A DNA stretch of 64,000 nt from Vicinamibacterales bacterium (GTDB lineage: Bacteria > Acidobacteriota > Vicinamibacteria > Vicinamibacterales > SCN-69-37). The position numbers and the translations under genes are program-made. Shown piece after piece: positions 1 through 30,960 of this stretch. The notes beneath the pieces were generated by a model. It ran no database searches and was not told where the DNA came from. It saw only the letters and a program-made list of their open reading frames with translations. Position 1 is the stretch's first letter. Every line of letters begins with the position of its first letter. The stretch lies in contig DATNEY010000026.1 in the NCBI GenBank assembly GCA_035606665.1, positions 215,575-279,574 on the forward strand, read 5' to 3'.

Positions 1-367
1 CGTTGCAGGTGGCCGGCCGTCTGGATCGAGTCCGGGAGGTGGCCGCAAATGTCTCCGACTGGACGTCGGTCGTCGACCTCGGTCGCCCGGAGGCGGCGCT
101 GTAATGCCGAGCGCCGCGTCCGTCCAGGTAACCGAGGTCCTGAGGCAGCGATATTTTCCTATCATGTCCGCGCTTTCGAACAACTGGACTCCGGAGCAAC
201 ACGAAAAGAATCGCCTAAGCCGGTCTCTTGCCGCCTTCGCCATAGAGGAGTTCGGCGGGTTGGTTCCGGCCCAAGCCGCATACAAGGTATGTGACGGCGG
301 GAACTTAGGGGTATTACAATCATCCAACTACTCAGCTGGTTTTGCTGAGAGCCTATAGAGGTGTGAC

Positions 368-1585
368 ATGACGGGTCTTGGACCGTTAGCGATCTCGATC
401 CTGCTTGTCGCAGTCACCGTTGGCCAGACATCCACGCAGAATGGTGAACTAGTCCGGGCAGCTTCGGACCTCGCGGCGCGCATTGCAGCCCTCGCTCCTG
501 GCACCACCGTCGGCGTGGTCGATTTCACGGATCTGCAGGGTCGGAAGACGGAACTGGGGCGCTCCCTCTCAGAGGAGTTGTCCGTTGCTCTAGTCAATAC
601 TTCCAAAGGCCTTCGGATCATCGATCGCGCCAACATCCGTGAGTTGCTCGCCGAGCAGAAACTGGCACAACAAGGAGTCATTGATGAAAGGACTGCGGCC
701 CAACTGGGTAAGATCGCGGGTCTGAGGGTTGTGATCACCGGAATAGTCAGAACTGAGACCTCTGACACGGCCCGAGTAACGCTGAAGGCCGTTGATACTC
801 AAACGGCGGAGACTCTCGCAGCCGCAGCGCTCACCATGCCGATCTCAATGGCTTCGCGACTGGACAGAGACCTCCTTGACCCGCCGCGGGTGTCGAATGC
901 CGCGCCGAATGTTCGGCCGTTTCAGAATGCCTTTCTGACGATGACTGCGGATTCCGCAACTTTCTCAGCGTCTTCCGGGCCAGCGGAGGCATCCGTCAAT
1001 TTGTCATTCGTGATCGAAAGCAGGACATCCGCCGAAGAGCTTCTTCTCTGCGTGGAAAAAAACCTCGTTGATGACCGGGGGACCGACTGGACCCTAGTCA
1101 AAGGCACCAGCCTTGCCGCATTAGCTGAAGGGTACAACGTTACGTACAGTTCAAGCGGCGGCAACACATTCGACCTGGCAGCTCACACTAGGCTGCCGCC
1201 AGGTGTCCGCGAGACCGTGTTCATGCGGTTCAATGGTGATCGCTCACAATCGCGTCCTGCGACCGTGGACCTGTCGATGAAGTGTTACCGAAGGCGCGGG
1301 AACGTCGACGAACCGTTTTCGATCACGATCTCGAGGATACCCATCGGCGGGACCGCTCCGGGCCGACCGGTGGTGTTCTGTGGTGCTTGCGGCCAATCGA
1401 ATCTAGATAGGTTACGTTCGTGCGCGTTTTGCGGTGCGCCGCTGTCTGCCACGTCTGAGCTGGCCTCCGCCGCCACCATCGTCGGTCTCGCTTCGGGTGC
1501 CAGAGAGTCGTCCGGAAGTCGAGCAGCGTCGATTCGCAGTTCATTGTCGAGAGCCTTCGACCTGACCAGTGACGCGCTTGAATAG
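368..1585 (+). CDS. Lipoprotein with FlgO/CsgG/LpoB-like (TolB-N-like) periplasmic domain and C-terminal zinc ribbon (CGACG...CAFCG)
   Basis: Signal-peptide-like N-terminus. Conserved block VGVVDFTDLQGRKTELGRSLSEEL...DRANIRELLAEQKL...GKIAGLRVVITG is shared with four paralogs in this window. C-terminal CxxC-x13-CxxC. Confidence 0.6.
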   Translation: MTGLGPLAISILLVAVTVGQTSTQNGELVRAASDLAARIAALAPGTTVGVVDFTDLQGRKTELGRSLSEELSVALVNTSKGLRIIDRANIRELLAEQKLAQQGVIDERTAAQLGKIAGLRVVITGIVRTETSDTARVTLKAVDTQTAETLAAAALTMPISMASRLDRDLLDPPRVSNAAPNVRPFQNAFLTMTADSATFSASSGPAEASVNLSFVIESRTSAEELLLCVEKNLVDDRGTDWTLVKGTSLAALAEGYNVTYSSSGGNTFDLAAHTRLPPGVRETVFMRFNGDRSQSRPATVDLSMKCYRRRGNVDEPFSITISRIPIGGTAPGRPVVFCGACGQSNLDRLRSCAFCGAPLSATSELASAATIVGLASGARESSGSRAASIRSSLSRAFDLTSDALE

Positions 1586-1602
1586 ACGACGACAGCAAGC
1601 CG

Positions 1603-4035
1603 CTATTCAATCGTGATCGGCTCTTGTGCCAGTGCAAGACGGACTGAGCGGCGCGTGTCTGAAATGGGACCGTACCAGATCGCCACACTGAGCAGCATCT
1701 GACCCTTCGGCCACTGCGACTTTAGAGTCAAGATCCGTTCGACGGTGCTTGCGCCAACGGCGATCGTCGCTTCTTGGTCCTCGGTGGCATCGTAGAAATA
1801 GCGGTCGCCCCTCGACAAGTCGGCACCAAGCCACCCATCGAAACCGAATGGCAGCCCACTGTGCGCCTTGTAGATTAGGCGGAGAACAGAACCCTGAGGA
1901 ACGGAGCCATCACGCTGACTCTTGAATAGACGGTCTTCCTTCTCCTTCGCCGCGCGCGATGCGACGCCGTCGAAGCCGGCGTCGACGCGTGGCGACCCGT
2001 CCTCATTCGTGTCGTAGAGGCCCTCCAAGATCGGGCCGCGCGGGCGTTTTGCGCCCTCCAACACTGTCGAGCGGCCCAGACTCAACTTCACAAGCGCCGT
2101 ACCCGTCGCGGCGCGGATAGCCTCGTCTCGCTTTCTAGCAAGCCATTCGTAACGGTACGCTCCATCGGGTCTTATCGAGCGCGCCTTCAGGAACTCTCGC
2201 AGGTCCAGTAACCCGATTGCGTCACCGGGTATTTCGCCGTGATCTAGCGAGACCTGCGGCCACAGGTATTTGCGCCACAGTCTCTTGGCCAGGTCACGCC
2301 GATGCTCGCAGGGGAGCTGTTGCCACACTGCGTCGAACCGGCGTCCCAGCTCACTCACCGTGGATGACAGAGACTGGACATCCCGATTGGCCGGTAACTC
2401 GGCCTGCAGGCCGGCGCAAAAACAACTCGCGAACTTCGTACGGACCTCATCGAGAACCGTGTCGCCCATCCCACCGCCAGGAAGGTTGGCCATCGGTGGG
2501 AATTCGCAACGAGCCCACGCGCTACAGCAAGCATCCAGCACGTCGTGGCCAGACACTAGCCGTAACGGCGCAAGGGAAACGGCAACAAACTCGCGTTCAT
2601 CATGCTTGGCCTGTCTTTCTTCGGCTTCACGTCGCAACACGTCCTCGGCCTCTGCCGCTCGGTGCTGCGCCTCCAGCAGGAGTTGGTAATCACCCCACGT
2701 TGTCCGCGGGTCAAGTTTCAGCCAGTCCAAGTACCGATCCAAATCGATGTGCTTCAGCACGACCTCTCGGAGTAACTCGCCCTCCTCGGAGGTGACGGGG
2801 CTTGAAAGTCGGTCTCGCATTACGGGAAGCCGCGAAGCCATCCAGGACTCGGTGACGAAGAGCCGATCGGGCCCCTTGTTGCATCCGTCAAAAAACGCTG
2901 CGATGACCTGCTCGACACCGAGCCCGCCACGAAGCTGGTCAAAGGTCACTGGACCTATGGATTCCGTCGAATTCTTCCCCGTCTTTCTATTCGCTTCAAT
3001 TCTCGCCTTGATCCGTGCTCTTGTTGCAGTTTCCGTTTTTCTATTCGCTGCAATTCTCGCTTCAATCCGTGCTCTCGTTGCAGTCTCGCCGCTCGGAGGC
3101 GACGCTTCGCTCTTGATCGCCGCGCCATCGAGTAACTCGCGCACTTGCGTTGCTCCAGGGCGCTCAGCCGGGTTCTTGGCAAGGAGTAGCGCTACTAGCT
3201 GGGCCAGTTCTTCTGACGCACCAACCAACCTGTCTGGTACTCGATGCAGGATCTGCGTCGCTATGTCGCCCGTCGAAAAGGGAGGTGCGCCGCTGACCAT
3301 TTCGTAGAGCGTCGCGCCGAGGGCGTACCAGTCGCTGGTTGGCCCAGCTTTGCCCATCACCGCTTCGGGTGCCATGTAGGCCAGCGTGCCCGACGTGTCG
3401 AGTCGTGACACCCGACTCAATGAGTCTCGAACCTCACGCGCGAGCCCGAAGTCCGCGAGCTTGACCGTGCCTTCTGGTCCCAGGAGCACGTTGGCGGGCT
3501 TCACATCGCGATGGAGCACGCCTTTTGCGTGAGCATAGGCAAGCGCTGCGGCTATTTGCGCGCCGACCCGTCGCGCGTCTCGGTCGTCGAGTCGGCGGTG
3601 ACGCAGAAGCAGGGCGGCGAGCGAGACGCCCTCGACATACTCCATCACCAGAAACTTGATCGGCCCCTGCGCCTCGAAGTGGAACATGCGCACGATATCC
3701 TCGTGCGCCAGTTCCATCGACGTCCGAGCCTCAATCTTGAGCCGATCGACTGCGCCGGTATCCTGGCTCAGGACATCCCGCAGGCGCTTAATCGCGCGCG
3801 GCTTCTTCAGCTCAACATCCTCAGCGAGGTAGACTTCACCTGTCGCCCCAGCGCCGATCAGCCGCTCGATGCGATACCGCCCACTGAGGAGCGCGCCGGT
3901 CGCCAGTCCAAGTTGCGTCGGATGCGCGTCGAGTGGATCCATCGGCGCCGCGCTGGCCGATGCAAGCTTGTGCCCACAGCGTCCGCAAAATGAAGTATCG
4001 TCAGGACTCGGCGCGCCGCATCTACGACACAACAT
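1603..4035 (-). CDS. Multidomain Ser/Thr protein kinase: N-terminal zinc ribbon, Hanks-type kinase, 18-aa tandem repeat, ~450-aa C-terminal domain of unknown function
   Basis: CRRCG...CGRCG zinc ribbon. Kinase motifs GAGATGEVY, AIK, HRDVKPANVLL, DFGLAR, APE. Confidence 0.9.
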   Translation of the reverse strand: MLCRRCGAPSPDDTSFCGRCGHKLASASAAPMDPLDAHPTQLGLATGALLSGRYRIERLIGAGATGEVYLAEDVELKKPRAIKRLRDVLSQDTGAVDRLKIEARTSMELAHEDIVRMFHFEAQGPIKFLVMEYVEGVSLAALLLRHRRLDDRDARRVGAQIAAALAYAHAKGVLHRDVKPANVLLGPEGTVKLADFGLAREVRDSLSRVSRLDTSGTLAYMAPEAVMGKAGPTSDWYALGATLYEMVSGAPPFSTGDIATQILHRVPDRLVGASEELAQLVALLLAKNPAERPGATQVRELLDGAAIKSEASPPSGETATRARIEARIAANRKTETATRARIKARIEANRKTGKNSTESIGPVTFDQLRGGLGVEQVIAAFFDGCNKGPDRLFVTESWMASRLPVMRDRLSSPVTSEEGELLREVVLKHIDLDRYLDWLKLDPRTTWGDYQLLLEAQHRAAEAEDVLRREAEERQAKHDEREFVAVSLAPLRLVSGHDVLDACCSAWARCEFPPMANLPGGGMGDTVLDEVRTKFASCFCAGLQAELPANRDVQSLSSTVSELGRRFDAVWQQLPCEHRRDLAKRLWRKYLWPQVSLDHGEIPGDAIGLLDLREFLKARSIRPDGAYRYEWLARKRDEAIRAATGTALVKLSLGRSTVLEGAKRPRGPILEGLYDTNEDGSPRVDAGFDGVASRAAKEKEDRLFKSQRDGSVPQGSVLRLIYKAHSGLPFGFDGWLGADLSRGDRYFYDATEDQEATIAVGASTVERILTLKSQWPKGQMLLSVAIWYGPISDTRRSVRLALAQEPITIE
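2984..3091. repeat. 54-bp x2 tandem duplication inside the kinase gene, encoding ATRARIEARIAANRKTET / ATRARIKARIEANRKTGK
   Basis: Two near-identical 54-nt units (tttctattcgc..gcagt) visible directly in the sequence. Confidence 0.8.
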
Positions 4036-4057
4036 CGTGGCCCATTTTGCCTCGACA

Positions 4058-8314: not shown

Positions 8315-8328
8315 GGCGCTCGCGCTCC

Positions 8329-10944: not shown

Positions 10945-11013
10945 CGTGGTCTCCGGGATGAAAGGTCACGGCGCGCTGGAGCGGGCAGCCGCGAACCCGC
11001 ACATCGAGCGCTC

Positions 11014-11043
11014 ACTATAGGTAATTTAGGGTAATTAAGTCAA
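11014..11043 (-). promoter_or_regulatory. Sigma70-like promoter TTGACT-N18-TATAGT on the minus strand upstream of the 871-aa gene. Contains a TAGGGTAAT motif.
   Basis: Hexamers read directly from the sequence (reverse complement of 11014-11043) in an AT-rich intergenic gap. Confidence 0.45.
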
Positions 11044-11162
11044 CTAGGTTCGTCTTAATACCTAACCAACCGGCCGTGCCGGACTTTAGATCCTGCGCCG
11101 GCCCGCGGCTCGTGGCATTGCCTGGGCAGAGGCCGCGAACCTCCACATCAATCGGCCGATGA

Positions 11163-11870
11163 TCACCGCCGCGACTCCGGGCCGAGGTGGCGCAAGAGAA
11201 TCGGGCGCACAATCGGACCGCCTTGTCGATTAACGACATAGGTCCCGACCTCGCCGGCCGTAACTTCCACGGTTTCCACAATCAGGTTCCTTGCCCCGCG
11301 GGCCAGGAACGCCGCCCGGGCCTCATCGCCTTCAACGAGGTCGAGCGACGGCAACTCACTTCTCAGTCGAGCGAAGCAAAGGAGCAGACGCTCGTCCTGT
11401 GCCGGAGGCTGGAAGCGAATCAGAGGACTCACGTAGTCCTGGGTCGCCTTGACGGGCGTGCCCGCCGTATCGCCGTCTACAGGCAGCAACAGGGACGCCC
11501 GTCCCGATGTGTTCAGCGCCCAGACAGAAAGGAATCCGTCGACATTGGTTCGGACATGAATGCGGATCCGATCGCCGGACGCGAAGGAATGCGTGTCCGC
11601 CACAGGCCCGCGGCCTGTCAAGTCAATCCAGTAATGCACTCCAACGGATCGCGTACCCGTGGGAACCGGCGCCACTGGGCGAGGCGCTCCCGTGCTCGAC
11701 GCCGGTGGGGTCGCCGGCACGCGGGGCGGCGACGGAGCAGCCTTCGCCGTCGATCCTGTTGCGGGGTTGTAGAACAGTGACCGCGCGCCGGTCGGCTCCT
11801 GGACACCCATGCCGGCTGCCAGCGCAACCGCGGCGAATGTCGTCGAGAGCCGCGTCATGCCTGATCGCAT
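11163..11870 (-). CDS. Secreted DUF4384-like domain protein (caspase-associated beta-sandwich)
   Basis: Signal peptide. Motif GDRIRIHVRTNVDGFLSVWALNTSGRASLLLP is typical of the DUF4384 family that commonly accompanies bacterial caspase-domain proteins. Confidence 0.6.
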   Translation of the reverse strand: MRSGMTRLSTTFAAVALAAGMGVQEPTGARSLFYNPATGSTAKAAPSPPRVPATPPASSTGAPRPVAPVPTGTRSVGVHYWIDLTGRGPVADTHSFASGDRIRIHVRTNVDGFLSVWALNTSGRASLLLPVDGDTAGTPVKATQDYVSPLIRFQPPAQDERLLLCFARLRSELPSLDLVEGDEARAAFLARGARNLIVETVEVTAGEVGTYVVNRQGGPIVRPILLRHLGPESRR

Positions 11871-11895
11871 TGGTCGTGCCCTTCCATCTGGTCAG

Positions 11896-13191
11896 CTAGC
11901 CGCCAGGCTTCCTGGCGATCCGATCCTTCAGATACAGGTTCACCGAATCGCGGCTCCGTACGATCATCGGATGCTGCGACTCGCGCTTTTCGCTCATTAC
12001 GGCATCCGTGACTCGGAGCCTCACATGGCCGAAGACATCGTCGACGGACAACGGGCCTGGTTTCGTGAGCGCATCGAGCAAGAAATAGGTGAAGTAGCCG
12101 TGTTGAATCTTGTCGTCCTCCCAGGACCGCTCGGCCTGACTGCTCGACGTTATGATGATGCGGCCCACGCCCTGGGGGACCCGGCCTCTGCCGATTTCTG
12201 ATCCGGTATCAACCACCAGTGATCGCGACCCCGCCAGACCCTCTTCCAACCGGGCCATCGACACGCCAGTCTCGGTCGTCAGGGCGCGACTGCTGGCGGT
12301 CCATCCCGACGGCAACTCTTTGTAGGTGCCGCCGCTATAGCACGTGTCGAGGAACGCGATGACGCGTTCCGACTTGATTCGACTGCCGAGCGCTCTGAGC
12401 AGGTCGTCCATCGCGTAAGCAGTCGAGTACAGGCCGCTGACCTCGGTGTCGTACGTGACGATGTAATTCACACCGGCCGTGTCGAGATTCTCAGGAGACC
12501 CATGGCTGCTCATGTAGACCACCACGAGGTCCTCTGGTTCGGCATTCTTCGCGAGGTAGTCGATCTCCATCGTAATGTTCTTGCGCGTCGCCGCTTCGTC
12601 CAGGAGTGTCTTGACGGAGTCGAACTCGCAGCATTGCTTGAGTGCCGCGGAGACCGCCTCCGCATCACGTGCGGTGTACTTGAGCGCGTTGATTCTCGGG
12701 TCCTGAAAACGGCTGATTCCCACTACCAGTGCCCACCTCTTGCGCACGACCGAGGAAACGTGGATGGCGGGCACTGCCGGTGGCGGTGAAGCTACGCCTG
12801 GGGAGCGGACGGCTCCTGCGGCCGAGGTGGATGTGCTGGCCAGGGGCACCGGCGCATACAGCGACTCGCCGTTGCGCATCGCGGCAGAGTTCCAGGTCTC
12901 GGCCTGTTTGCGCCAGTACTGCGCTTTGGAGTCCTTCAGTTCTGCGCCAACAAGGCTCAGGAAATACCATGCATCCCCAAGGCCTGCGCAGAAGTCTGTC
13001 GCGCGCTTCAGATTCTGCAGAGCATCTTCAAGACTTGCCCGCTCGGCGTTCGGCTTGAGACTCTCACGCGTGCTCCGGACGAGCTCTGCCGCGGTATCGC
13101 ACCTGGTACCCTGCTCGGCAGAACCGGACGTGGACCCATACGGAAACGCGAGCGCGCAAACCCCGACGACCAACCATTTCAGAGAAGTCAT
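11896..13191 (-). CDS. Secreted caspase-like (peptidase C14, orthocaspase) protein
   Basis: KRWALVVGISRF...YMSSHGS (His) ...IAFLDTCYSGG (Cys) catalytic dyad contexts. Signal peptide. C-terminal HGYFTYFLLDAL block. ATGA start/stop overlap with the upstream gene. Confidence 0.85.
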   Translation of the reverse strand: MTSLKWLVVGVCALAFPYGSTSGSAEQGTRCDTAAELVRSTRESLKPNAERASLEDALQNLKRATDFCAGLGDAWYFLSLVGAELKDSKAQYWRKQAETWNSAAMRNGESLYAPVPLASTSTSAAGAVRSPGVASPPPAVPAIHVSSVVRKRWALVVGISRFQDPRINALKYTARDAEAVSAALKQCCEFDSVKTLLDEAATRKNITMEIDYLAKNAEPEDLVVVYMSSHGSPENLDTAGVNYIVTYDTEVSGLYSTAYAMDDLLRALGSRIKSERVIAFLDTCYSGGTYKELPSGWTASSRALTTETGVSMARLEEGLAGSRSLVVDTGSEIGRGRVPQGVGRIIITSSSQAERSWEDDKIQHGYFTYFLLDALTKPGPLSVDDVFGHVRLRVTDAVMSEKRESQHPMIVRSRDSVNLYLKDRIARKPGG

Positions 13192-14552
13192 TGCGCCGAC
13201 CAGTTCCAGTTTCCTGGACCTCCACTTGGTGTAGACACAAGTGGAGCTTTCTTGGTCGCCTGTCTCGCACGTATGGCTGCCATGACCTTGGCTGAGACCT
13301 TCCCGGCCAGGAGCTGCTTGTAACCCTCAGGTGACAGGTCGAACGCGACGGTCTTGGCGTTCTTGATGGCATCGAGGAGGCTGGCTTCGTCCAGGCCGCC
13401 CGCGACGAGTTCAACCACATCCTTATTGCCGAACGCTGCTGGCTTCGTCGTAGCCGGCGGAGTCGTCGTGAGTGCCCTGGCGCCAGACTTGCTGCTTGCG
13501 GAATCAGCCGCCTGTTTGGCGGCGGCCGCCGCCGCGATAATGGCCTGTTGACGTTCGAGTTGGGCGTAGGCCGCGATGCCCTCCTGGATTCTGATCTGGG
13601 GGGTCTGGAAGTACTTTTCGTCGACCTTCATTTCGATGGCTCTTCCGTAGAGGCTCGAGGCTTGCTCGAGCAATTTCTTCGACGTCGGGATGTCCTCAGA
13701 GCTGTAGGCCATGGCTTCCCTGGCGACGCCGAGATTGAACAGCCGATACGCTTCCTTCTTTGGATCCTTCAGCGGTGGTATCTGTTCCAGTTGCTCCAGC
13801 ATGCGATTCCACAGTCCCGCTTGACCGAGCTTGTTGATCTCGTCGATGGCGTCCGGTCGGGCGAGCATTACGGTTACCGGCTCGGTCGTGGGCGTCAGCC
13901 GACGCATCACCTGCTCGACGGCTGAATCGATCAACAGTTGTTCCACGCGGCTTTGGTCGGGTGGCGTCGTGCCAGCCAGGAACTCGCGCGTGTAGGTGGG
14001 CGTGAACGACTGCGAATCAATGGAGGCCCCGCTGACGCGATCCTGGACCTGGACGGCGACCGCCAAATCACCCTGCACCGCGGTGAAGTGTTGCGTCTCG
14101 TTCACGGTCGAGTACACATCCTGAGTTTCGTATGCTTTCTTCTTGGCGTTCCACACCTGCTTCGTGCCCGTCTTCTTGCTGACCTGCACTTGACGCTGGC
14201 CCGCCGACTGCTTGGTGTCGAGCCTGCTGATCGTGCACATGATGAGCGTATCTGGTTGAGCCGTTTCAACCCGTAGCCGTGCGTCACCGGCCAGGAGGCG
14301 CGTCTCGACCGTGGATTTGAACCGCTGTGCGATGTTCTCGCGCCCATTTGTCTGGGAAACGACCTCGACTTTGATTGCGGTACCGGTAATCAGCACTGTC
14401 GGAGGGTGCTTTCGATTCAGCGTGACCTCAGTTTTTTGCTGCGTAAGTCCCTTGCGGAATTGGGCTTCGGCCCGGGGCGGATTCCCCAACGCTACCGCGA
14501 CAACGACACTGGCAACGCCTGCAGCAAGAACCGTGTGGACGCTTCTCATCAT
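13188..14552 (-). CDS. Secreted hypothetical protein (start reassigned to the ATGATG at 14552, overlapping the upstream stop)
   Basis: SD GGAGGA then ATGATG. Signal peptide MMRSVHTVLAAGVASVVVAVALG. The ORF-track N-terminal extension is low-complexity. Confidence 0.7.
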   Translation of the reverse strand: MMRSVHTVLAAGVASVVVAVALGNPPRAEAQFRKGLTQQKTEVTLNRKHPPTVLITGTAIKVEVVSQTNGRENIAQRFKSTVETRLLAGDARLRVETAQPDTLIMCTISRLDTKQSAGQRQVQVSKKTGTKQVWNAKKKAYETQDVYSTVNETQHFTAVQGDLAVAVQVQDRVSGASIDSQSFTPTYTREFLAGTTPPDQSRVEQLLIDSAVEQVMRRLTPTTEPVTVMLARPDAIDEINKLGQAGLWNRMLEQLEQIPPLKDPKKEAYRLFNLGVAREAMAYSSEDIPTSKKLLEQASSLYGRAIEMKVDEKYFQTPQIRIQEGIAAYAQLERQQAIIAAAAAAKQAADSASSKSGARALTTTPPATTKPAAFGNKDVVELVAGGLDEASLLDAIKNAKTVAFDLSPEGYKQLLAGKVSAKVMAAIRARQATKKAPLVSTPSGGPGNWNWSAQ

Positions 14553-15433
14553 TCCTCCTCGACCTTCGTCAAGTTCTCGAAACGTACCCGTCCGTGCAGC
14601 GGCTGCAACATGGCGTCCGATCGGGCGTGTTCGGCGAGTGCCGCCCTGGTCATGCCCGGAGCGTTGGCGACCGCCATCAAGGCGGTACCCAATGACTCGA
14701 GCGCCCCGTCCGCTCGCCCGCTCAACGCCAGGGCGCAGGCGAGGTTGTAGTGCGCCAGCCAATTCGCCGGCGCAACCCTGATGGCGGCCCTGCACGATGC
14801 TTCCGCGCTGGCCACCTGGCCTGCCTGCAATTCCGCGCCGCAGAGGTTTGCAAGGACGGCTGCATTGGACGGCTCTCGCACGGCGAGTTCCGTGAACGCT
14901 CGGAGCGCCTCCGTCGTGCGTCCGTCAGCAGCCAGCGCGATTGCGGCCTCGAGTGTCACCAGCGGCGGAGCGCCCCCGTCGGAGTTCTGCACGGTATTCG
15001 CGTTCGCTTGCTCGACTCCCCGGCCGTCGGCGGAACTGCGGGTCACCCACATCGCAAGCACCACAACCGCGATGATCGAAACCACACCCATCAACAGGCC
15101 GCCAGCGATATTCACCCGCGAGTGCTTGACGCTACTGTCGACGTTGCTGGTAATCGTCGTGGCCCGTGACGAGTGATCGTCGTTCGTGACGGTCGTGACC
15201 GAGCGACTGTCCCGGACCGAATGGTCGTCTCGAGTGGAATGGTCGTCGCGGGTCGAACTCGACTGCGCCGAACTGTGGATGTTCGTCTCGCTGTAGTCGG
15301 CGCCCGTGTCGCCCTTCGACTGTGAGATCGTCGCTGGCGTAGCCGGCGGCCGTACCACGCGCAGCGCGCCGCCACAGGCGAGACAGAACTTCCCCGAAGC
15401 CTCCTGTCGCCCGCACTGAGCGCATTCCAACAT
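14549..15433 (-). CDS. Membrane-anchored protein: N-terminal zinc ribbon, STRDDHS-repeat linker, single TM, C-terminal TPR repeats
   Basis: CAQCG...CLACG. TM GGLLMGVVSIIAVVVLAMWV. TPR-like helices (AEASCRAAIRVAPANWLAHYNLACALALSG). The N-terminal ~100 aa are near-identical to the protein at 28021. Confidence 0.8.
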   Translation of the reverse strand: MLECAQCGRQEASGKFCLACGGALRVVRPPATPATISQSKGDTGADYSETNIHSSAQSSSTRDDHSTRDDHSVRDSRSVTTVTNDDHSSRATTITSNVDSSVKHSRVNIAGGLLMGVVSIIAVVVLAMWVTRSSADGRGVEQANANTVQNSDGGAPPLVTLEAAIALAADGRTTEALRAFTELAVREPSNAAVLANLCGAELQAGQVASAEASCRAAIRVAPANWLAHYNLACALALSGRADGALESLGTALMAVANAPGMTRAALAEHARSDAMLQPLHGRVRFENLTKVEEE

Positions 15434-15678
15434 CGACTACTCCTCGGCTCAGCCAGCCGATCTCGACGGGTTCAGCGCAGACCGTGCATTGCACTGAATA
15501 AGTACCCCCAAGATGACTTTAATGGACTCTAATTATCCGAGGAGTATACTCCCGCCGCCCGGCCGGGTTCAACTGGTGACTTGGCACGGCGCCTGGGCGG
15601 CCCGTGGCAGGGCAAGCTGGCAGGTCATAGGAAGGTATTACCCTGAAGTTCTGGAACCGTCTATATAATTGATGGCAA

Positions 15679-16521
15679 GTGTTCGGCTTCCTGCTCGGCA
15701 TCCTTGCTCGGCCCGTCGGTAAAATGCTGCTGGGTGCCGTTGTTGTCCTCCAAGGTTATTTGCTGTTCCGCCCGCAAGATCCGCTGGGCTTCGCGGGCCA
15801 TTCTGTGGTGACTCAGACCGCCGCCGCCGTGGCAGCGGATCTGCCTGATAGGAAGGGACTGACGACCCTTGCGGTGCTCCCGTTCGTCAATGACTTCAAT
15901 GCGGTCGTCGCCGGCCAGGTGAAGGATGCGATCCTCGAACGAGGCCGCTATGAGGTGTTGGACGAGTCTTTCTTCAGGCGGTTGCTGAACGAAGCCAGGG
16001 GCGGCGCTGCGCCGATCGCGGACCTGAAAGAGGCCGTGGCTGCCGCCCGCCGAATTGGCGTTGACGCGGTCGTGTTCGGGGAGGTGTCGCGGTTGACACG
16101 CGAGCCCGGGCAAGCAGATCTCGCGTTGAATCTGCGAATGGCCGAACGTGAGTCGGGCCAAGCCGTCTTTGCCCGCCAATATGAGGACCGTGCCGGTGGC
16201 AACTCGACGTCGGTCGCCTATTGGCGCGCAAGACTGGCAGACAGTTCCACGCCGCAGCGTATTCTGGCGTGGACCTGCATCGTGCTGCTCGCGCCGCTCG
16301 TCGGCGCTGGCCTCATCCGACGGGTGACGGCTGAGGAATCGAATCTCCGAAATGGCGTGCTGCTAGTTGCGATGACAGGCATTGACGTGCTTCTGGCCTG
16401 GGGACTCACGGGATTCTGGATCGCGTCCTGGGGGACCGCTGCCGCGATCGCCTTGGCAGCGGCCGCCAGCCTGGCGTACAACTACAAGGTAGCGTCGATA
16501 ATTGACGATTTGGCCCAGTGA
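15679..16521 (+). CDS. Membrane protein with FlgO/CsgG/LpoB-like domain and C-terminal TM helices
   Basis: Block LAVLPFVNDF...GVDAVVFGEVSRL. Hydrophobic C-terminus. Confidence 0.55.
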   Translation: MFGFLLGILARPVGKMLLGAVVVLQGYLLFRPQDPLGFAGHSVVTQTAAAVAADLPDRKGLTTLAVLPFVNDFNAVVAGQVKDAILERGRYEVLDESFFRRLLNEARGGAAPIADLKEAVAAARRIGVDAVVFGEVSRLTREPGQADLALNLRMAERESGQAVFARQYEDRAGGNSTSVAYWRARLADSSTPQRILAWTCIVLLAPLVGAGLIRRVTAEESNLRNGVLLVAMTGIDVLLAWGLTGFWIASWGTAAAIALAAAASLAYNYKVASIIDDLAQ

Positions 16522-16567: not shown

Positions 16568-16595
16568 TTGACAGGGTAAAAGATTACTTTAGAAT
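16568..16595 (+). promoter_or_regulatory. Sigma70-like promoter TTGACA-N16-TAGAAT with a CAGGGTAAA motif abutting the -35
   Basis: Exact hexamers. Near-identical architecture to the promoter at 21034. Confidence 0.55.
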
Positions 16596-16623
16596 GGAGT
16601 CGAGTGCTCCGTTCGTGGTGAAA

Positions 16624-16839
16624 ATGCGAATGACGAAGACACCAACGAATCTCATGACGGTGGAGGAGGCTGCGGCCTACCTCAAAGTCGATCCCAAGAC
16701 GGTCTACCGGTTGATCAACGACAAGGAAATCAAGGCATTCCTCGTGGGGCGGGTGTACCGATTCGAGATGAAGGACATCGAGGACTTCGTCCAGAAATCC
16801 AAACTGAAGGTCCAGCGCGCGGCGAAGCGGAGCTACTGA
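16624..16839 (+). CDS. Excisionase-family helix-turn-helix DNA-binding protein (HTH_17/MerR-like)
   Basis: MTVEEAAAYLKVDPKTVYRLINDKEIKAFLVGRVYRFEMKDIEDFV matches the excisionase-family HTH pattern. The ORF-track start at 16540 overlaps the promoter, so a downstream Met (16624, 16630 or 16654) is the likely start. Confidence 0.6.
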   Translation: MRMTKTPTNLMTVEEAAAYLKVDPKTVYRLINDKEIKAFLVGRVYRFEMKDIEDFVQKSKLKVQRAAKRSY

Positions 16840-16857: not shown

Positions 16858-17460
16858 ATGGGCCTTTTCAAGTCTAAAGAGGAGCGACGGCTCGAGCGGA
16901 CGATGAAAGTCCGCCAGGCTGTCGCGCAGCTCAGGCGCCAGATCAAGGACAGCGAAAAGCACGAAACGGCCTATGTCCAGAAGGCCAAGCGGTCCCGCAA
17001 GCTCGGCTGGAACAACCAGTACGAGTTCCTCAAGAAGGCGATCAAGAAGACCGCCACCGTAAAGGTCCAGCTCGAACGACAGCTTCTTGCGCTCGAGTCG
17101 GCTTCCCAAATCAAGGAACAGACCGAAAGCCACGCGCAGTTCGCGTCGGCAATGTCCGCGCTCTCGAAGAGTATCTCCGAGGCTTTTGGCATCACCGATC
17201 TCGCCAAGACTCAGGTGAACTTCGAGAAGGCCATGGCGCAAGCCTCGAACCTCGAAGAGCGCATGGACACGTTCCTGGACATGACGTCGGAAACGATGTT
17301 CGGCTACGAGGGCAGCCCGGAAGGCGAACTGGTGAGCGACGCCGACATCGACAGAATGCTGGTCGACGAGGTCACACGCGAAGAGAGGACCGACACGGGT
17401 CTCGACCTCGACGCGGACATCGCATCCGTCGAACGGGAACTGGATCGGGCAAAGAAGTAG
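16858..17460 (+). CDS. Snf7/ESCRT-III-like (CHMP2/Vps2-like) coiled-coil protein with C-terminal MIM-like helix
   Basis: MGLFKSK N-terminus. The helical layout is colinear with CHMP2A (basic N-half, acidic C-half). The C-terminal DLDADIASVERELDRAKK resembles the MIM1 of CHMP2A, DADADLEERLKNLRRD. Confidence 0.65.
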   Translation: MGLFKSKEERRLERTMKVRQAVAQLRRQIKDSEKHETAYVQKAKRSRKLGWNNQYEFLKKAIKKTATVKVQLERQLLALESASQIKEQTESHAQFASAMSALSKSISEAFGITDLAKTQVNFEKAMAQASNLEERMDTFLDMTSETMFGYEGSPEGELVSDADIDRMLVDEVTREERTDTGLDLDADIASVERELDRAKK

Positions 17461-17741: not shown

Positions 17742-19073
17742 TCATTTCACCAGATTCCGCCGCGGCGGAACGGGTTCGGCGATCCTCGGCAACGTGAGGC
17801 CATCAAAGATCAAGTTGTGAAGTGAATAGGATCTTCTTGTGCCCGTCGTGACAACGCCGACCACGAATTCGGCACTGAGTTGAAACGACTTCGGAGCGGC
17901 ACCGGAATTCGTTTCGCTCGCATCCTGAACGAAGCTCATGGTAACTGCAATGTTCTGCCCAGCGGGGATGGGCGTTGTGGACCCGTACACGAACTGGTAG
18001 GGACCGCAAGTCGCGCCTTCCCGGATGTCCGTCGCAGTTTGTGAACCAGTGCCTTCCCACCTTTGAAGAACCAGCACGATCTCGGCAGGATTGTACTCGG
18101 CGCGACCCGGCGCACAGCTGTCCGCACTTCGTCCCACTCCGACAACACTCACGCCAGTAACCGCAGAAGGTGATAGGCGCCAGACCGTGCCTCGCTCGTC
18201 GATGAGGCTGGTCCGCAGGGACGCACCCATCTCCGTACCTTGTCGCTCTGGTGCAGCATCAGCATTCATCGCCACAACCATGGGCCTCTGAAGATCGCGG
18301 TTCAAGAGCTCGATCGAAAGCCTGAACCCGCTTCTGCTTCGACCGTCCTGTCCCTGGAGGCGCATCGGGACGGCCGATTTGAGAACCACACGAAGAGCCC
18401 CGACGTCCTTCGAAGCAATGGCATTGCCTTCGCGATAACTCGGAGTCCCACCGCCACCGCTTGCGGAGTCACCCGCGGGTGCCGTTGCCGTCGTCGAACC
18501 GGCGAACAGCCCTCGATTGAGCAGTTGCTGGATGTCGCTGGTCGTCGGGAAGGTGATCCTGCCGGCGGTGACGATCCGCGATGACTCCGTAGCAATGGCT
18601 TTGACTGTAAGAGTGATCTTCGCATCAAGGGAAGTTACTGTCCCCATCAGGAAGACATCAACCCCCGCGAACTCGCCCAGTTTCTTGGCGTTCGCTGGAT
18701 TGACCAGGCCTTGCACCGTCAGCTTGTTTTCCGCCAGGATGCGATTGGTGTTGGCGCGGTCCAGCATCGAGATGCCGCCGGCGAGCACCATCTCGACGGT
18801 CAGGAGCTCCGACAGGTGGCGCCCCAGTTCGGTCGGCTGTCCCTGGATGTCCGTGAAATCGACCGCGGCTACGTTCTTGATGCCTTGGCTCGCCAGCGCC
18901 TTGCCCAGGTTGGCCGCGAGCGTGGACAGTTCCTTGTCCAGCGATTGTGCCTGTACCTCCGTCGATTGTGCCCGTACCTCCGTGTTGATCGCGAGGCTGA
19001 GCGCAAGGACAACCATCAGTTTCACTGCCGCCAGGATCTTCAAAGTGAACCTCCAACCTGCGCGATGACGCAC
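17742..19073 (-). CDS. Lipoprotein/secreted protein with FlgO/CsgG/LpoB-like domain (paralog)
   Basis: VAAVDFTDIQGQPTELGRHLSELL...DRANTNRILAENKL...GVDVFLMGTVT. GTG start. 21-bp tandem duplication (TEVRAQS x2) in the signal region. Confidence 0.75.
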   Translation of the reverse strand: MRHRAGWRFTLKILAAVKLMVVLALSLAINTEVRAQSTEVQAQSLDKELSTLAANLGKALASQGIKNVAAVDFTDIQGQPTELGRHLSELLTVEMVLAGGISMLDRANTNRILAENKLTVQGLVNPANAKKLGEFAGVDVFLMGTVTSLDAKITLTVKAIATESSRIVTAGRITFPTTSDIQQLLNRGLFAGSTTATAPAGDSASGGGGTPSYREGNAIASKDVGALRVVLKSAVPMRLQGQDGRSRSGFRLSIELLNRDLQRPMVVAMNADAAPERQGTEMGASLRTSLIDERGTVWRLSPSAVTGVSVVGVGRSADSCAPGRAEYNPAEIVLVLQRWEGTGSQTATDIREGATCGPYQFVYGSTTPIPAGQNIAVTMSFVQDASETNSGAAPKSFQLSAEFVVGVVTTGTRRSYSLHNLIFDGLTLPRIAEPVPPRRNLVK

Positions 19074-19211
19074 GCAATCTACTTCTTCCTATTGGCCTTT
19101 AGTATACTTTGATACCATTTAATTCCGTCAAGTGTGCCGCATCTGCCTAGGGCGGGCCACTCGGTCGGGCTATTATGCGCGCGTCAGGCGGAGCCCTGAG
19201 GGAGGTTAGGC

Positions 19212-20909: not shown

Positions 20910-21033
20910 GTGTCGTCAGAGGGCAATAGTGTTCAGGCCTCACGATACCGGCGCGCCAATTGAATCCGCTCCCTCGGACTTGGCCCCGCCCCGGCCGTCG
21001 AACCGTTAGCGAATCGGCTCAGAATGTAAATAC

Positions 21034-21061
21034 TTGACAGGGTAATAGAGTCCAATAGAAT
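21034..21061 (+). promoter_or_regulatory. Sigma70-like promoter TTGACA-N16-TAGAAT with CAGGGTAAT abutting the -35
   Basis: Exact hexamers. Duplicate of the 16568 promoter architecture. Confidence 0.55.
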
Positions 21062-21084
21062 ACCCACAGATAAGGGCTTACCAG

Positions 21085-22224
21085 GTGCACTTCTTTCTCG
21101 ATCAATACATGCGCAACCGCGACCAGGGCGTTGACTACCTGAAGGTTGGTGACGGCACCCAGGCCCGGTACCACCTCCTCCAAGCGGCCCGATTCCTCCT
21201 CGAATCGGCCAAGCGATCGGAGCCCGCGCTGGCGAGGGTCCGGCGAGATAAGGCCGTTGAACTGCGAGAACTCGCGCTGAGTGTCCCTGAGAAGCCTCAT
21301 ACGCAACCCGCGCCCGTCCGTCAGCCCGGCGCGCTTGCCGACCCGCCGGCCCCTGGGGCCAAAGCCAACGAGGAAGGACTGACCGACGAGGCCAAATGGC
21401 TTCTATCGGAGAAGCCCAATATCCGTTTCTCGCAGATCGCTGGACTCGATGACGTGAAGCAGGCAATCGACCTGCGCCTGGTCTACCCATTCCGCCATCC
21501 GGAAGTCGCCGAGCGTTTCAAGAAGCGGGCGGGCGGCGGGTTGCTCCTGTATGGCCCGCCCGGCACGGGCAAGACAATGATCGGCAAGGCCGTGGCCGCT
21601 GAATTGGACGCGCAGTTCCTGAGCGTGAAGTGCTCGAGCATCATGTCGCAGTGGGTGGGCGTCGCCGAACGCAACATCGCGAAGCTGTTCGACGTCGCCC
21701 GGCGCTACCCCCTGTCAGTCGTGTTCCTCGATGAAACCGAAGCGCTCGTGGGCAAGCGCGGCGGCCATTCGACTGTGATGAACCGCGTCATTCCGGAGTT
21801 TCTTTCCCAGATCGATGGTGTGGATGCGGCGAAGAACGCCATCCTGCTCCTCGGCGCCACGAACCGCCCCTGGGACATGGATGAAGCCGCGTTGCGCACA
21901 GGCCGATTCGGGGAGAAATTCTACGTCGATCTGCCGAACGCTGCGGCGCGCGAGCAGATCCTGCACTTCAATCTCGATGAGATCCCGATGGGCGGTGGCA
22001 TCGATTTCAAAATGCTCGCCGCCGCCACGGACGGCTTCAGCGGTGCGGACATCGTCGGCGTTTGCCGCACGGCGACGGATTATCCCTTCCAGAGGCAGAT
22101 TCGATCCGGTGCCGAAACGGTGCTGCTGCAGGAAGATCTAGACCGCGCACGCAAAGCAACCAAGCCCTCGGTCACACCGGCGATGATTGCCCGATACCGG
22201 CGCTTTGCGGAGACGTCATCGTGA
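21085..22224 (+). CDS. Vps4-like AAA+ ATPase with N-terminal MIT-like domain
   Basis: N-terminal three-helix MIT-like region (GVDYLKVGDGTQARYHLLQAARFLLESAK). Walker A GPPGTGKT, Walker B VVFLDETEAL, meiotic-clade-like AAA. The start may be the ATG at 21109. Confidence 0.85.
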   Translation: MHFFLDQYMRNRDQGVDYLKVGDGTQARYHLLQAARFLLESAKRSEPALARVRRDKAVELRELALSVPEKPHTQPAPVRQPGALADPPAPGAKANEEGLTDEAKWLLSEKPNIRFSQIAGLDDVKQAIDLRLVYPFRHPEVAERFKKRAGGGLLLYGPPGTGKTMIGKAVAAELDAQFLSVKCSSIMSQWVGVAERNIAKLFDVARRYPLSVVFLDETEALVGKRGGHSTVMNRVIPEFLSQIDGVDAAKNAILLLGATNRPWDMDEAALRTGRFGEKFYVDLPNAAAREQILHFNLDEIPMGGGIDFKMLAAATDGFSGADIVGVCRTATDYPFQRQIRSGAETVLLQEDLDRARKATKPSVTPAMIARYRRFAETSS

Positions 22225-25486: not shown

Positions 25487-25495
25487 GGGGATGCC

Positions 25496-26116: not shown

Positions 26117-26149
26117 ATCTCATTGATGAGGGAGATGACGCTGATGGTC

Positions 26150-28002: not shown

Positions 28003-28020
28003 TCGCGAGGGAATCGTCGA

Positions 28021-30104: not shown

Positions 30105-30109
30105 CTCGC

Positions 30110-30871
30110 ATGGATGGGCTGAAACACGCGTGGGACGCGGCCACCCAGGACCTGGCCGTTTGGTTGATCCGGGCGCTGATCACGACGCTCGTCGTGACGC
30201 TCATGTGGTGGTTCTGGGAACGAATTCGCCGGGCGATTCTGCGCCTGCTGGGACGCACGCCGGCTCCGCCAACGCAGGCGCAACAGCCGGATTGGCAGGA
30301 AGGTTACGCGGTGCGCCTGTGGCCGCTCGACCGGCTCCGTCAGGGCGTCGTCATTGCGCCGCGCACTCGTCTCCTCGTCATTGACCGGGACGTTGTCCAG
30401 TTCGAACTGGAGCCGGGGAAGTACGCCGGCAGCGATCTCGGACGCCGACTGGCCCGTCATGCGGTGGGGGCTGGCGCGATGGCGGTCCAGGTGCCGGATG
30501 GAGGTATTCAGTTTGAACGGACACTTGGCGCCGAGCTGGAGGGCAGGGCTGACGCGATGGCTGGGGGCGTGAGGTTAGGGCTGAACGTCGATCCGCACGG
30601 TTTCGGGAAGCTGGCGAGGTCGTCGCGCCTGCGCAATGGGGTGCTGACCAAGGATGATGTGTTTGCGTTCGTGGAGGAGGTCGTGCAGCCCCGACTGGCC
30701 CAGATAGCGGAACACCCGGCTATGCCTGGCGTCGGCTCGGAAACGGTCATGCAGCAGATCGCCGACCACCTCCACCAGGAATTGGGCTTGGTGGGGTCCG
30801 TTGATTCCACAGTCCCCGCGGTGCCGGCTGCGGCGCATCTGAACGTGCCCGCTCATGGGCCGACCAGCTAG
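30110..30871 (+). CDS. Membrane protein with one TM, possible SPFH-like fold
   Basis: ATG 6 nt after the upstream stop. TM LAVWLIRALITTLVVTLMWWFW. Weak similarity to the SPFH region of the 31017 protein. Confidence 0.55.
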   Translation: MDGLKHAWDAATQDLAVWLIRALITTLVVTLMWWFWERIRRAILRLLGRTPAPPTQAQQPDWQEGYAVRLWPLDRLRQGVVIAPRTRLLVIDRDVVQFELEPGKYAGSDLGRRLARHAVGAGAMAVQVPDGGIQFERTLGAELEGRADAMAGGVRLGLNVDPHGFGKLARSSRLRNGVLTKDDVFAFVEEVVQPRLAQIAEHPAMPGVGSETVMQQIADHLHQELGLVGSVDSTVPAVPAAAHLNVPAHGPTS

Positions 30872-30900
30872 AGCCGTGCGAGGCCGGTGGACAGTGAGCT

Positions 30901-30960
30901 TTGAGGAAATTTAGGGTATCAGGATATACTAGATTCATGTACATGGTTCCATGTGTATGT
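30901..30960 (+). promoter_or_regulatory. Promoter TTGAGG-N18-TATACT with TTAGGGTAT motif, followed by imperfect palindrome CATGTACATGG-ttc-CATGTGTATG (candidate operator)
   Basis: Read directly from the sequence. An SD GGGAGG lies 8 nt before the ATG at 31017. Confidence 0.45.

What the first reader, a model, noticed from the sequence alone, without database searches (positions are those of the whole stretch)
296..30930. Recurrent AGGGTAAT motif embedded in near-identical promoters of the island
The word (C/T)AGGGTA(A/T) occurs in six AT-rich intergenic regions: ~305-313, 11027-11035, 15628-15640 (minus), 16574-16582, 21040-21048, 30910-30918. At 16568 and 21034 it is fused to TTGACA in otherwise near-identical TTGACA-N16-TAGAAT promoters. 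In a ~68% GC genome such repeated AT-rich words are unlikely by chance. They suggest co-regulation of the kinase/ESCRT-like/caspase operons by one factor (perhaps the excisionase-family HTH protein at 16624).
Basis: seen in the sequence. Interest (0 to 1): 0.6.

Follow-up and report, generated by a model that had tools for sequence, protein, structure and literature searches.

The report
Shared promoter-operator of an acidobacterial island
Most operons of a kinase/ESCRT-III-like/caspase gene island in an uncultured soil acidobacterium start from variants of one conserved 28-base promoter containing AGGGTAAT, which is found in related genomes only where a small Xis/BldC-like DNA-binding protein is also encoded, so that protein is the likely common regulator; this is a sound but fairly ordinary regulatory finding.

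Summary
The word is real, but it is the core of a longer element: TTGACAGGGTAAT-AnAGTCCAnTAGAAT, a sigma-70-type promoter with a conserved spacer.

- **Independent recovery.** A 28-nt matrix trained only on 11 sites from other metagenomes finds window 21034, 16568, 11023 and 30908, plus a new site at 19123(-). Scores are 20.9-41.3 bits; shuffled windows give a mean maximum of 10.7.
15638(-) is not promoter-shaped; it is an AGGTA-T-TACCCT inverted pair. 305 is AGGGGTA inside a called ORF and is unsupported. 31716 is a coding-region chance hit.
- **Corrections.** GC is 63%, not 68%. The organism is a Vicinamibacterales MAG.
- **Conservation.** TTGACAGGGTA is conserved upstream of the HTH_17 gene in eight of eleven loci that carry an orthologue. 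One of these has a neighbouring Snf7-like protein only 52% identical to the window's. The motif is absent from 80 related loci (1.2 Mb) that lack the orthologue, including loci at 64-69% identity.
- **The protein.** The HTH models as a BldC/Xis-like winged helix.
- **Best reading.** It is an autoregulated, island-specific regulator whose operator overlaps the operon promoters. I favour repression. Binding is inferred, not shown.

The parts
16568..16595 (+). Promoter-operator of the HTH_17/Snf7-like operon: TTGACAGGGTAAAAGATTACTTTAGAAT (-35, 16-nt spacer carrying AGGGTA, -10)
   Evidence: Sigma-70 scan gives 11/12. The matrix trained on other genomes scores it 34.9 bits. The orthologous position is conserved in L084, L085, L087, L088, L089, L097 and L099.
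21034..21061 (+). Promoter-operator of the AAA(CdvC-like)/subtilase/AAA/CsgG-like operon: TTGACAGGGTAATAGAGTCCAATAGAAT
   Evidence: 11/12 and 41.3 bits, the best hit in the window. It is 23/28 identical to 16568. The orthologous promoter in L084 keeps AGTCCAATAGAA but has AAGGAAC in place of AGGGTAA.
11014..11068 (.). Operator cluster between the 871-aa operon start (10944, minus strand) and the end of the caspase operon. It holds two direct units TAGGTAATT and TAGGGTAATT on the plus strand (11018-11036) and an inverted AGGTATTAAG on the minus strand (11063-11054). It overlaps a plus-strand promoter-like 28-mer (11023-11050) and the minus-strand promoter TTGACT-N18-TATAGT (11043-11014).
   Evidence: (26.6 bits). 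The orthologous operon in L085 (51% identity) carries TTTACAGGGTAATAAAGTGTATTAAAAT in the sense orientation.
30908..30935 (+). Promoter-like site without a -35 hexamer upstream of the SPFH/zinc-ribbon operon (start 31017): AATTTAGGGTATCAGGATATACTAGATT
   Evidence: 23.9 bits. It shares GGAAATTTAGGGTAT with L083 site 1909.
19096..19123 (-). New variant site upstream of the CsgG-like gene 17742-19043(-): ATTAAATGGTATCAAAGTATACTAAAGG, lying within TTGACG-N19-TATACT
   Evidence: 20.9 bits with the independent matrix. Sequence read. The core is ATGGTA, not AGGGTA, and the score is within the range of the best shuffles.
15633..15645 (.). Isolated operator-like inverted pair AGGTA-T-TACCCT (minus strand CAGGGTAAT) in the divergent region between the TPR-caspase operon and the 280-aa membrane-protein gene. 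It lies at about -38 to -31 of a plus-strand TATAAT (15664-15669).
   Evidence: Exact word match. The full-promoter matrix gives only 6.0 bits. Sequence read.
15516..15543 (-). Degenerate relative of the promoter on the minus strand ahead of the TPR-caspase operon: TCCTCGGATAATTAGAGTCCATTAAAGT. Weak.
   Evidence: 5.4 bits. It shares AGAGTCCA-TTAAAGT with the consensus. A TTGAAC-N18-TATACT match lies next to it.
16624..16839 (+). Gene of the 71-aa HTH_17 (excisionase/BldC-like winged helix) protein, the candidate regulator
   Evidence: Pfam HTH_17 E=2e-16. TIGR01764 'excise' domain. The AF2 model (core pLDDT 81-85) has BldC 6ama and Pukovnik Xis 4j2n as best fold matches, TM 0.75-0.78 normalised to the target, rmsd 1.3-1.6 A.
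307..313 (+).
   Evidence: Not an exact match. Below 5 bits with the matrix. Inside a called 84-aa ORF.
31716..31723 (+). CAGGGTAT inside the SPFH gene; regarded as a chance occurrence
   Evidence: Coding context with no -10 at the fixed distance.

Best explanation
The AGGGTAAT word is the most conserved part of a roughly 28-bp promoter-operator module with consensus TTGACAGGGTAAT-A(A/G)AGTCCA-nTA(G/A)AAT. RNA polymerase with the housekeeping sigma factor would use the TTGACA and TAnAAT hexamers. The 16-nt spacer (AGGGTA, then AGTCCA one helical turn later) would be the binding site of the 71-aa Xis/BldC-like winged-helix protein encoded at 16624-16839.

That protein would sit on its own promoter (autoregulation) and on copies or variants of the same site at the other island operons. 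This would couple expression of the Snf7-like/AAA, subtilase, SPFH/FHA, kinase and caspase operons. The sites overlap the spacer and -10 of otherwise near-consensus promoters, and one copy (11027) is inverted inside the spacer of the minus-strand promoter it would control. I therefore favour repression that is lifted by an unknown signal.

**Shown here:** the element exists, is non-random, is restricted to the island, is conserved across distant relatives, and co-occurs with the HTH gene.

**Inferred:** that the HTH protein is the binder, the sign of regulation, and the transcription start sites.

My sub-probabilities are about 0.85 that this is a real, selected cis-regulatory module shared by the island operons, about 0.55 that the HTH_17 protein binds it, and about 0.35 that it acts as a repressor.
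For: 1. **Independent matrix.** Trained on 11 non-window sites, it finds five window sites at 20.9-41.3 bits, all between 11.0 and 31.0 kb. The shuffle maximum has mean 10.7. There are no hits in the 10 kb left of the window and none in 31-64 kb.
2. **Fixed spacing.** AGGGTA-N11-TAGRWT occurs at four sites.
3. **Conservation at the HTH gene.** TTGACAGGGTA(A/G) lies upstream of the HTH_17 orthologue in the window, L084, L085, L087, L088, L089, L097 and L099, while the flanking intergenic DNA is not alignable. L083 has the variant TTAGGGTAT and L098 has TTGACATGGAAA.
4. **Co-occurrence not explained by distance.** L088, whose Snf7-like protein is 52% identical, keeps both gene and motif. L003-L008 (64-69% identical) lack both. 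Across 1.22 Mb of HTH-less control loci there is one hit of at least 20 bits.
5. **Regulon conservation.** The 871-aa operon orthologue in L085 carries the site. In relatives the AAA operon directly follows the Snf7-like gene under the single HTH promoter. In the window the split-off AAA operon has its own copy of that promoter.
6. **The protein.** It is a single-domain wHTH whose nearest solved folds are BldC-DNA complexes, phage Xis, RacA and RdfS. BldC binds phased direct repeats head to tail, each repeat being an AT-rich segment plus a G/C contact (PMC5859096).
7. **Phasing.** Self-similarity of the sites peaks at a 10-nt shift, 0.49 against 0.20-0.35 at other shifts. Unit clusters occur at 11018-11068 and 15633-15645.
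Against: - No binding, transcription-start or expression data exist for this organism.
- In the neighbour-joining tree the HTH-less loci form one clade. The co-loss of gene and motif may therefore be a single event, and the tree rests on a 200-aa protein.
- L100 has an HTH orthologue but no motif.
- In L084 the AAA promoter lacks AGGGTA although the HTH gene is present.
- The training sites were collected by looking for AGGGTA. The core's information content is therefore inflated, and part of the matrix score is generic sigma-70 signal.
- The 10-nt phasing test uses related, non-independent sites.
- Promoters lacking a -35 hexamer (11023, 30908) would fit activation better than repression.
- The 19123 site scores within the range of the best shuffles (maximum 22.8).
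Confidence: 0.55

Rival explanations
1. The element is a regulated promoter, but the small HTH_17 protein acts as an activator. It would bind at about -30 to -13, bend DNA as BldC does, and substitute for the missing -35 contact at sites such as 11023 and 30908. Analogues are PhoB boxes or the phage T4 MotA box replacing the -35 element.
For: Window sites 11023 and 30908 and L083 site 1909 keep AGGGTA and a -10 hexamer but have AATTTA where TTGACA should be. BldC acts on many promoters and distorts DNA.
Against: The best-conserved copies have a perfect TTGACA and a near-perfect -10, and would not need an activator. The 11027 copy is inverted relative to the operon it precedes, whereas the L085 orthologue is in sense. 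That is easier to reconcile with occlusion than with a fixed activator-polymerase contact.
Confidence: 0.2
2. The conserved spacer is bound by some other factor, or is an intrinsic promoter-strength or DNA-shape element of these promoters. On this view the HTH_17 gene is simply one of the genes expressed from it.
For: There is no direct link between protein and DNA. L100 has the protein without the motif. The co-occurrence may reflect a single loss event. The L084 AAA promoter works without AGGGTA while keeping AGTCCAATAGAA.
Against: No other DNA-binding protein or sigma factor was seen among 30 island proteins scanned. The element is not a general feature of promoters in the rest of the window, the left flank or 1.2 Mb of related loci. 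Isolated units without promoter hexamers at 15633-15645 and 11054-11063 are hard to explain as polymerase elements.
Confidence: 0.2
3. There is no function: AT-rich words recur by chance in AT-rich intergenic DNA, or the copies are remnants of a small mobile repeat.
For: A 6-mer shared by 5 of 8 intergenic segments is common in shuffles. The relaxed word is not enriched. The exact TTGACAGGGTAA-N10-TAnnnT pattern occurs 85 times in viral contigs, as single hits mostly in low-GC phage DNA with no HTH orthologue nearby, which is what random sigma-70-like sequence would give.
Against: The independent matrix scores far exceed the shuffles. The spacing to the -10 hexamer is fixed. The element is conserved at orthologous positions down to 52% identity of the neighbouring protein. 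Similarity stops about 10 nt outside the 28-mer and there are no terminal repeats.
Confidence: 0.05

Closest known systems
BldC of Streptomyces (small MerR-like wHTH regulator; PDB 6AMA, 6AMK; PMC5859096)
   Same: It is a single-domain protein of about 70 aa with the same predicted fold; 6ama is the top Foldseek hit at rmsd 1.6 A. BldC binds promoter regions as head-to-tail multimers on roughly 9-bp phased direct repeats made of an AT-rich segment plus a G/C contact, AATTxxxx(C). The reverse complement of the present unit, AATTACCCT, has that general layout, and the sites show a 10-nt periodicity.
   Different: Sequence similarity is marginal: PDB profile E=0.002 and the NCBIfam BldC model at 21.5 bits against a cutoff of 77. 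The unit sequence differs. This protein has a conserved basic C-terminal tail, KLKVQRAPKRSY. It appears to serve one gene island rather than a genome-wide developmental regulon. Binding is untested.
Excisionases / recombination directionality factors (lambda-type Xis, mycobacteriophage Pukovnik Xis 4J2N, RdfS)
   Same: Pfam HTH_17 and the TIGR01764 'excise' domain. The fold matches 4j2n and 8dgl. These proteins also oligomerise on phased repeats, and some also regulate transcription.
   Different: There is no adjacent integrase or att site. The nearest integrase is about 20 kb away, outside the window, and has its own 239-aa HTH_17 neighbour. The sites lie in promoters of several operons, not at an element end.
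Small HTH repressors that keep defence or toxic islands silent (for example the MAD1 HTH of methylation-associated defence systems)
   Same: The second-best NCBIfam hit is the MADS1 HTH model at 50.6 bits. This is likewise a small HTH gene at the head of an island rich in kinases, proteases and AAA ATPases, with its site in its own promoter.
   Different: The score is below the model's cutoff of 80. The island's function is unknown, and no defence-system model was tested.
MerR-type spacer-binding regulators
   Same: The binding site is placed in the spacer between the -35 and -10 hexamers, and the DNA-binding fold is related.
   Different: MerR operators are palindromes in overlong 19-20-bp spacers, and the proteins are dimers with effector domains. 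Here the spacers are 16 nt, the units are direct, and the protein has no dimerisation or effector domain.

Membership tests
Sigma-70-type promoter | -35 TTGACA-like and -10 TAnnnT hexamers separated by 16-18 nt | tested here: met
   16568 and 21034 match 11/12 with a 16-nt spacer. The minus-strand 11043-11014 matches 10/12 with an 18-nt spacer. 11023 and 30908 have only the -10 half.
Sigma-70-type promoter | Located upstream of, and oriented toward, a gene | tested here: met
   16595 to the ATG at 16624. 21061 to the GTG at 21085. 30935 to the ATG at 31017. 19096 to the start at 19043. Exception: the plus-strand 28-mer at 11023 faces the 3' end of a convergent gene.
Sigma-70-type promoter | Mapped transcription start site | not testable with these tools
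   No transcript data are available for this uncultured organism.
BldC-family regulator with direct-repeat operator | Small single-domain MerR-like/Xis-like winged helix | tested here: met
   The AF2 model has the order beta-H-H-wing-H. Top fold matches are 6ama (BldC) and 4j2n (Xis).
BldC-family regulator with direct-repeat operator | Sequence membership (NCBIfam NF033787 HTH_BldC at or above 77 bits) | tested here: not met
   21.5 bits, covering residues 10-38 only. It is therefore not filed as a BldC family member, only as working like one.
BldC-family regulator with direct-repeat operator | Operator made of phased head-to-tail direct repeats | tested here: inconclusive
   Self-similarity peaks at a 10-nt shift, 0.49 against 0.20-0.35. 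11018-11036 has two clear direct units. However, the sites are related to one another, and an inverted pair also occurs.
BldC-family regulator with direct-repeat operator | Demonstrated binding of the protein to the sites | not testable with these tools
   Requires EMSA, footprinting or ChIP.
Excisionase / recombination directionality factor | Encoded next to a cognate integrase, with binding sites at an attachment site | tested here: not met
   The neighbours are a membrane-protein gene and the Snf7-like gene. The only integrase found is about 20 kb to the left, next to another HTH_17 gene.
MerR-type activator operator | Palindromic operator in a 19-20-bp spacer | tested here: not met
   Spacers are 16 nt at the two best sites. 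The spacer has no dyad. Only the weak 19123 site lies in a 19-nt spacer.
Mobile promoter / miniature repeat element | Repeat copies extending beyond the promoter, with terminal repeats or target duplications | tested here: not met
   The only repeat family covering the sites is 38 nt at 76% identity (D10).

The most novel reading that the evidence does not exclude
The 71-aa Xis/BldC-like protein is the master switch of a bacterial island that pairs an ESCRT-III (Snf7)-like protein and a CdvC/Vps4-like AAA ATPase with caspase, subtilase and Ser/Thr kinases. The 28-bp cassette would have been copied onto each operon when the island was rearranged, so that one small repressor gates a membrane-remodelling or programmed-death machine. 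If so, the cassette and protein give a direct experimental handle (derepression) on a system whose existence in bacteria is not yet acknowledged in reviews.
Probability: 0.25. Interest if true: 0.6.

Novelty: new member of a known kind. Interest (0 to 1): 0.4.

Why it matters
The motif is an ordinary kind of object: a lineage-specific transcription-factor site embedded in sigma-70 promoters.

Its value is practical. It defines which operons of a large, uncharacterised island are likely to be expressed together, and it names a testable regulator. The island contains a Snf7-like protein, a CdvC/Vps4-like AAA ATPase, a subtilase, a caspase, SPFH and FHA proteins, zinc-ribbon kinases and CsgG-like lipoproteins.

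Nothing is known about promoter or operator sequences in Vicinamibacteria. A 28-bp element conserved down to 52% identity of the neighbouring protein is therefore a useful first example. It could be used to drive or derepress the island in a heterologous host.

Tried and rejected
- **Naive k-mer enrichment in the island's intergenic DNA.** Not significant once all 6-8-mers are considered. The short word alone was dropped as evidence.
- **Relaxed unit AGG(G)(G)TAWW.** No enrichment, 14 observed against 15.6 expected.
- **Motif in 80 GTDB loci encoding Snf7-like homologues (Acidobacteriota and Planctomycetota).** Absent. This became the negative control.
- **Viral-contig scan for TTGACAGGGTAA-N10-TAnnnT.** 85 single hits, mostly in low-GC phage DNA, with no HTH orthologue. 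I read these as chance promoters and see no sign of a phage origin.
- **Rfam and tRNA scans of the window.** Nothing found.
- **Repeat search for a larger mobile element around the sites.** Only a 38-nt similarity.
- **Alternative-sigma reading, with AGGGTA as a -35 element.** Rejected because the 11-nt distance to the -10 hexamer is too short, and no sigma gene was seen in the island.
- **Consensus fold of the 5'-UTR hairpin.** Only four invariant GGAG/CTCC pairs and no covariation.
- **Literature search for acidobacterial promoter motifs.** Nothing relevant.
- **I-SceI resemblance.** ACAGGGTAAT equals half of the I-SceI site. I treat this as coincidence.
Full report
**Source and context.** The window is part of a 712-kb metagenome contig (ENA ERZ27256670, k141_1044100). 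A near-identical copy exists in a Logan assembly. NCBI names the Snf7-like protein as coming from a 'Vicinamibacterales bacterium' MAG, phylum Acidobacteriota. GC content is 63.2%, not about 68%.

Pfam scans show a dense island between about 0.4 and 37 kb. Its genes are:
- CsgG/FlgO-like lipoproteins: 368+, 17742-, 29058+
- zinc-ribbon Ser/Thr kinases: 1603-, 19425+
- an OmpA protein
- an 871-aa...723-aa operon
- DUF4384, caspase C14 and TPR: 11163-15433, minus strand
- a 280-aa membrane protein
- HTH_17: 16624+
- a Snf7-like protein: 16858+
- two AAA ATPases: 21085+, 26767+
- subtilase: 22760+
- SPFH with zinc ribbons: 31017+
- FHA: 34417+

**Checking the observation.** YAGGGTAW occurs six times against 0.78 expected. 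The '305' site is AGGGGTA and lies inside a called 84-aa ORF. An extra match at 31716 is coding.

The composition argument alone is weak. In Markov shuffles of the eight island intergenic segments, some 6-mer is shared by at least five segments 74% of the time.

What stands out is the architecture. AGGGTA is followed after exactly 11 nt by TAG(A/G)(A/T)T at 11028, 16573, 21039 and 30913. 16568 and 21034 are TTGACA-N16-TAGAAT promoters matching 11/12 consensus positions, and they are 23/28 identical to each other.

**Related sequences.** I fetched 80 GTDB loci encoding Snf7-like homologues from Acidobacteriota and Planctomycetota, at 40-69% identity. None has AGGGTA-N11-TAnnnT. The acidobacterial loci whose upstream region I read (L004, L006, L042) have no HTH_17 gene between the 280-aa gene and the Snf7-like gene. 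tblastn finds no close HTH_17 orthologue in any of the 80 loci; there is only a weak 34%-identity hit, in L016.

Closer relatives were fetched by exact-protein look-up (L083, L084, L085). A metagenome scan with an alignment of the 14 known HTH orthologues gave L087-L089. Four further look-ups gave L097-L100. All of these carry the HTH gene.

Upstream of the HTH gene the element reads:
- TTGACAGGGTAA in L084, L085, L087 and L097
- TTGACAGGGTAT in L099
- TTGACAGGGTAG in L088 and L089
- TTAGGGTAT in L083
- TTGACATGGAAA in L098
- nothing in L100

More distant HTH_17 genes (47% identity or less, L090-L096) have no such sequence.

Further copies precede other island genes. One is the L085 orthologue of the 871-aa operon (51% identity). 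Others precede small cargo genes in L083 and L084.

**An independent test.** I built a 28-nt matrix from the 11 non-window sites and scanned the window.

| Window site | Score (bits) |
|---|---|
| 21034+ | 41.3 |
| 16568+ | 34.9 |
| 11023+ | 26.6 |
| 30908+ | 23.9 |
| 19123- (new) | 20.9 |
| next best | 7.3 |

Windows shuffled in 200-bp blocks give a maximum of mean 10.7, sd 2.8, highest 22.8. The 1.22 Mb of HTH-less control loci give one hit of at least 20 bits. The 10 kb left of the window has none.

So the element is real, island-restricted and clade-restricted. 15644(-) scores 6.0 and 305 scores below 5. These are not promoter-type sites.

**Anatomy.** The consensus is TTGACAGGGTAAT-A(A/G)AGTCCA-nTA(G/A)AAT.
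- Besides the two hexamers, the spacer carries AGGGTA and, 10 nt later, AGTCCA or AGTnnA.
- Self-similarity of the sites peaks at a 10-nt shift.
- At 11018-11068 there are two direct units (TAGGTAATT, TAGGGTAATT) and an inverted AGGTATTAAG.
- That cluster overlaps the minus-strand promoter TTGACT-N18-TATAGT of the 871-aa operon. Relative to that operon the motif is inverted, whereas in L085 it is in sense.
- At 15633-15645 the word is part of an inverted pair, AGGTA-T-TACCCT, over the -35 region of a plus-strand TATAAT.

Orientation-independent units and isolated units argue for a protein operator rather than a polymerase-recognition element.

**Link to the HTH protein.** The link is comparative.
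- The element sits in that gene's own promoter.
- It is kept in L088, whose Snf7-like protein is only 52% identical to the window's.
- It is absent from L003-L008, at 64-69% identity, which also lack the gene.
- In most relatives Snf7-like, AAA and the rest form one operon behind the HTH gene. In the window lineage the AAA operon has been separated by a CsgG-like gene and a kinase gene, and it carries its own copy of the promoter.

The caveat is that the HTH-less loci form one clade in a neighbour-joining tree, so the co-loss may be a single event.

**The protein.** Pfam gives HTH_17 at E=2e-16, and NCBIfam gives the 'excise' domain. By sequence the nearest solved structures are Pukovnik Xis and BldC-DNA complexes. 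The AF2 model (core pLDDT 81-85) matches BldC 6ama and Xis 4j2n best, followed by RacA and RdfS.

BldC binds phased direct repeats head to tail and bends DNA (PMC5859096). The NCBIfam BldC model is far below its cutoff, so I do not file the protein as a BldC family member.

**Mechanism proposed.** The small winged-helix protein binds phased units across the spacer and -10 of near-consensus promoters. It thereby autoregulates and co-regulates the island operons, most likely by repression. Activation is the main alternative, because two sites lack a -35 hexamer.

Chance, a mobile repeat, a phage origin and an alternative sigma factor were considered and rejected.

**Verdict.** This is a genuine, conserved, island-specific promoter-operator with a plausible cognate regulator. 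It is a new member of a known kind. It is modestly interesting in itself and more useful as a handle on the unusual island it controls.

Noticed in passing
window 16858-17460 (+) and 21085-22224 (+); L009, L012, L013, L085: A Snf7-like protein (Pfam Snf7 E=1.5e-4, below the gathering score; some homologues carry a precomputed PF03357 hit) is genomically linked across Acidobacteriota and Planctomycetota to a classical AAA ATPase. That ATPase's best NCBIfam hit is archaeal CdvC/Vps4, at 202 bits against a cutoff of 650. The two genes are adjacent in most loci. A 2025 review states that a Vps4-like ATPase 'appears absent in bacteria' (PMC7619361). An MIT domain and true Vps4 orthology were not tested.
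   Followed up: partly
window 16596-16615; L084, L087, L097, L099 at the equivalent position: Directly after the -10 hexamer, the HTH_17 leader starts with GGAG...CTCC, which can form a 5'-terminal hairpin whose loop and inner stem differ between loci. RNAalifold kept only four invariant pairs and found no covariation.
   Followed up: partly
L101 1-10000 (the 10 kb left of the window); window 104-358: Immediately left of the island lie a tyrosine integrase, a 239-aa HTH_17 protein, an SNF2-type helicase, a HigB toxin, an M78 peptidase and a 'Beta_protein'. This looks like a mobile or defence element. The last three genes and an 84-aa ORF run straight into the CsgG-like gene at window 368, so the island's left border is unclear.
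   Followed up: no
window 21085 vs 21109: The metagenome gene call starts the AAA ATPase at 21109. Alignment with relatives (MQFYLDQY against the window's MHFFLDQY) indicates the GTG at 21085 is the true start, only 23 nt after the -10 hexamer.
   Followed up: yes
window 296-340: The rejected '305' site reads GGGAACTT-N16-TCCAAC, which loosely resembles ECF-sigma promoters (GGAAC...). It lies inside the 84-aa ORF just upstream of the CsgG-like gene. This is from reading the sequence only.
   Followed up: no
window 2979-3086: A tandem 54-nt repeat (87% identical copies) lies inside the 810-aa zinc-ribbon Ser/Thr kinase gene, which is on the minus strand.
   Followed up: no
window 15664-15681 and 19076-19081: A perfect TATAAT ends 9 nt before the GTG start of the 280-aa gene at 15679, suggesting a leaderless or nearly leaderless mRNA. 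A TAGATT lies just upstream of an alternative GTG at 19073 of the CsgG-like gene.
   Followed up: no
alignment A2 (HTH_17 orthologues): All orthologues end in a highly conserved basic tail, KLKVQRAPKRSY, with an invariant terminal tyrosine. The tail lies beyond the winged-helix core and is modelled at low confidence. It could be a DNA-binding arm or a site of modification by the island's kinases or proteases.
   Followed up: no
L085 9690-9745; L088 355-412: In two relatives the HTH promoter is preceded by a second copy of its own -10-proximal part (CACTAAAAT), exactly 30 nt upstream. This looks like the remnant of a tandem promoter or an additional phased unit.
   Followed up: no
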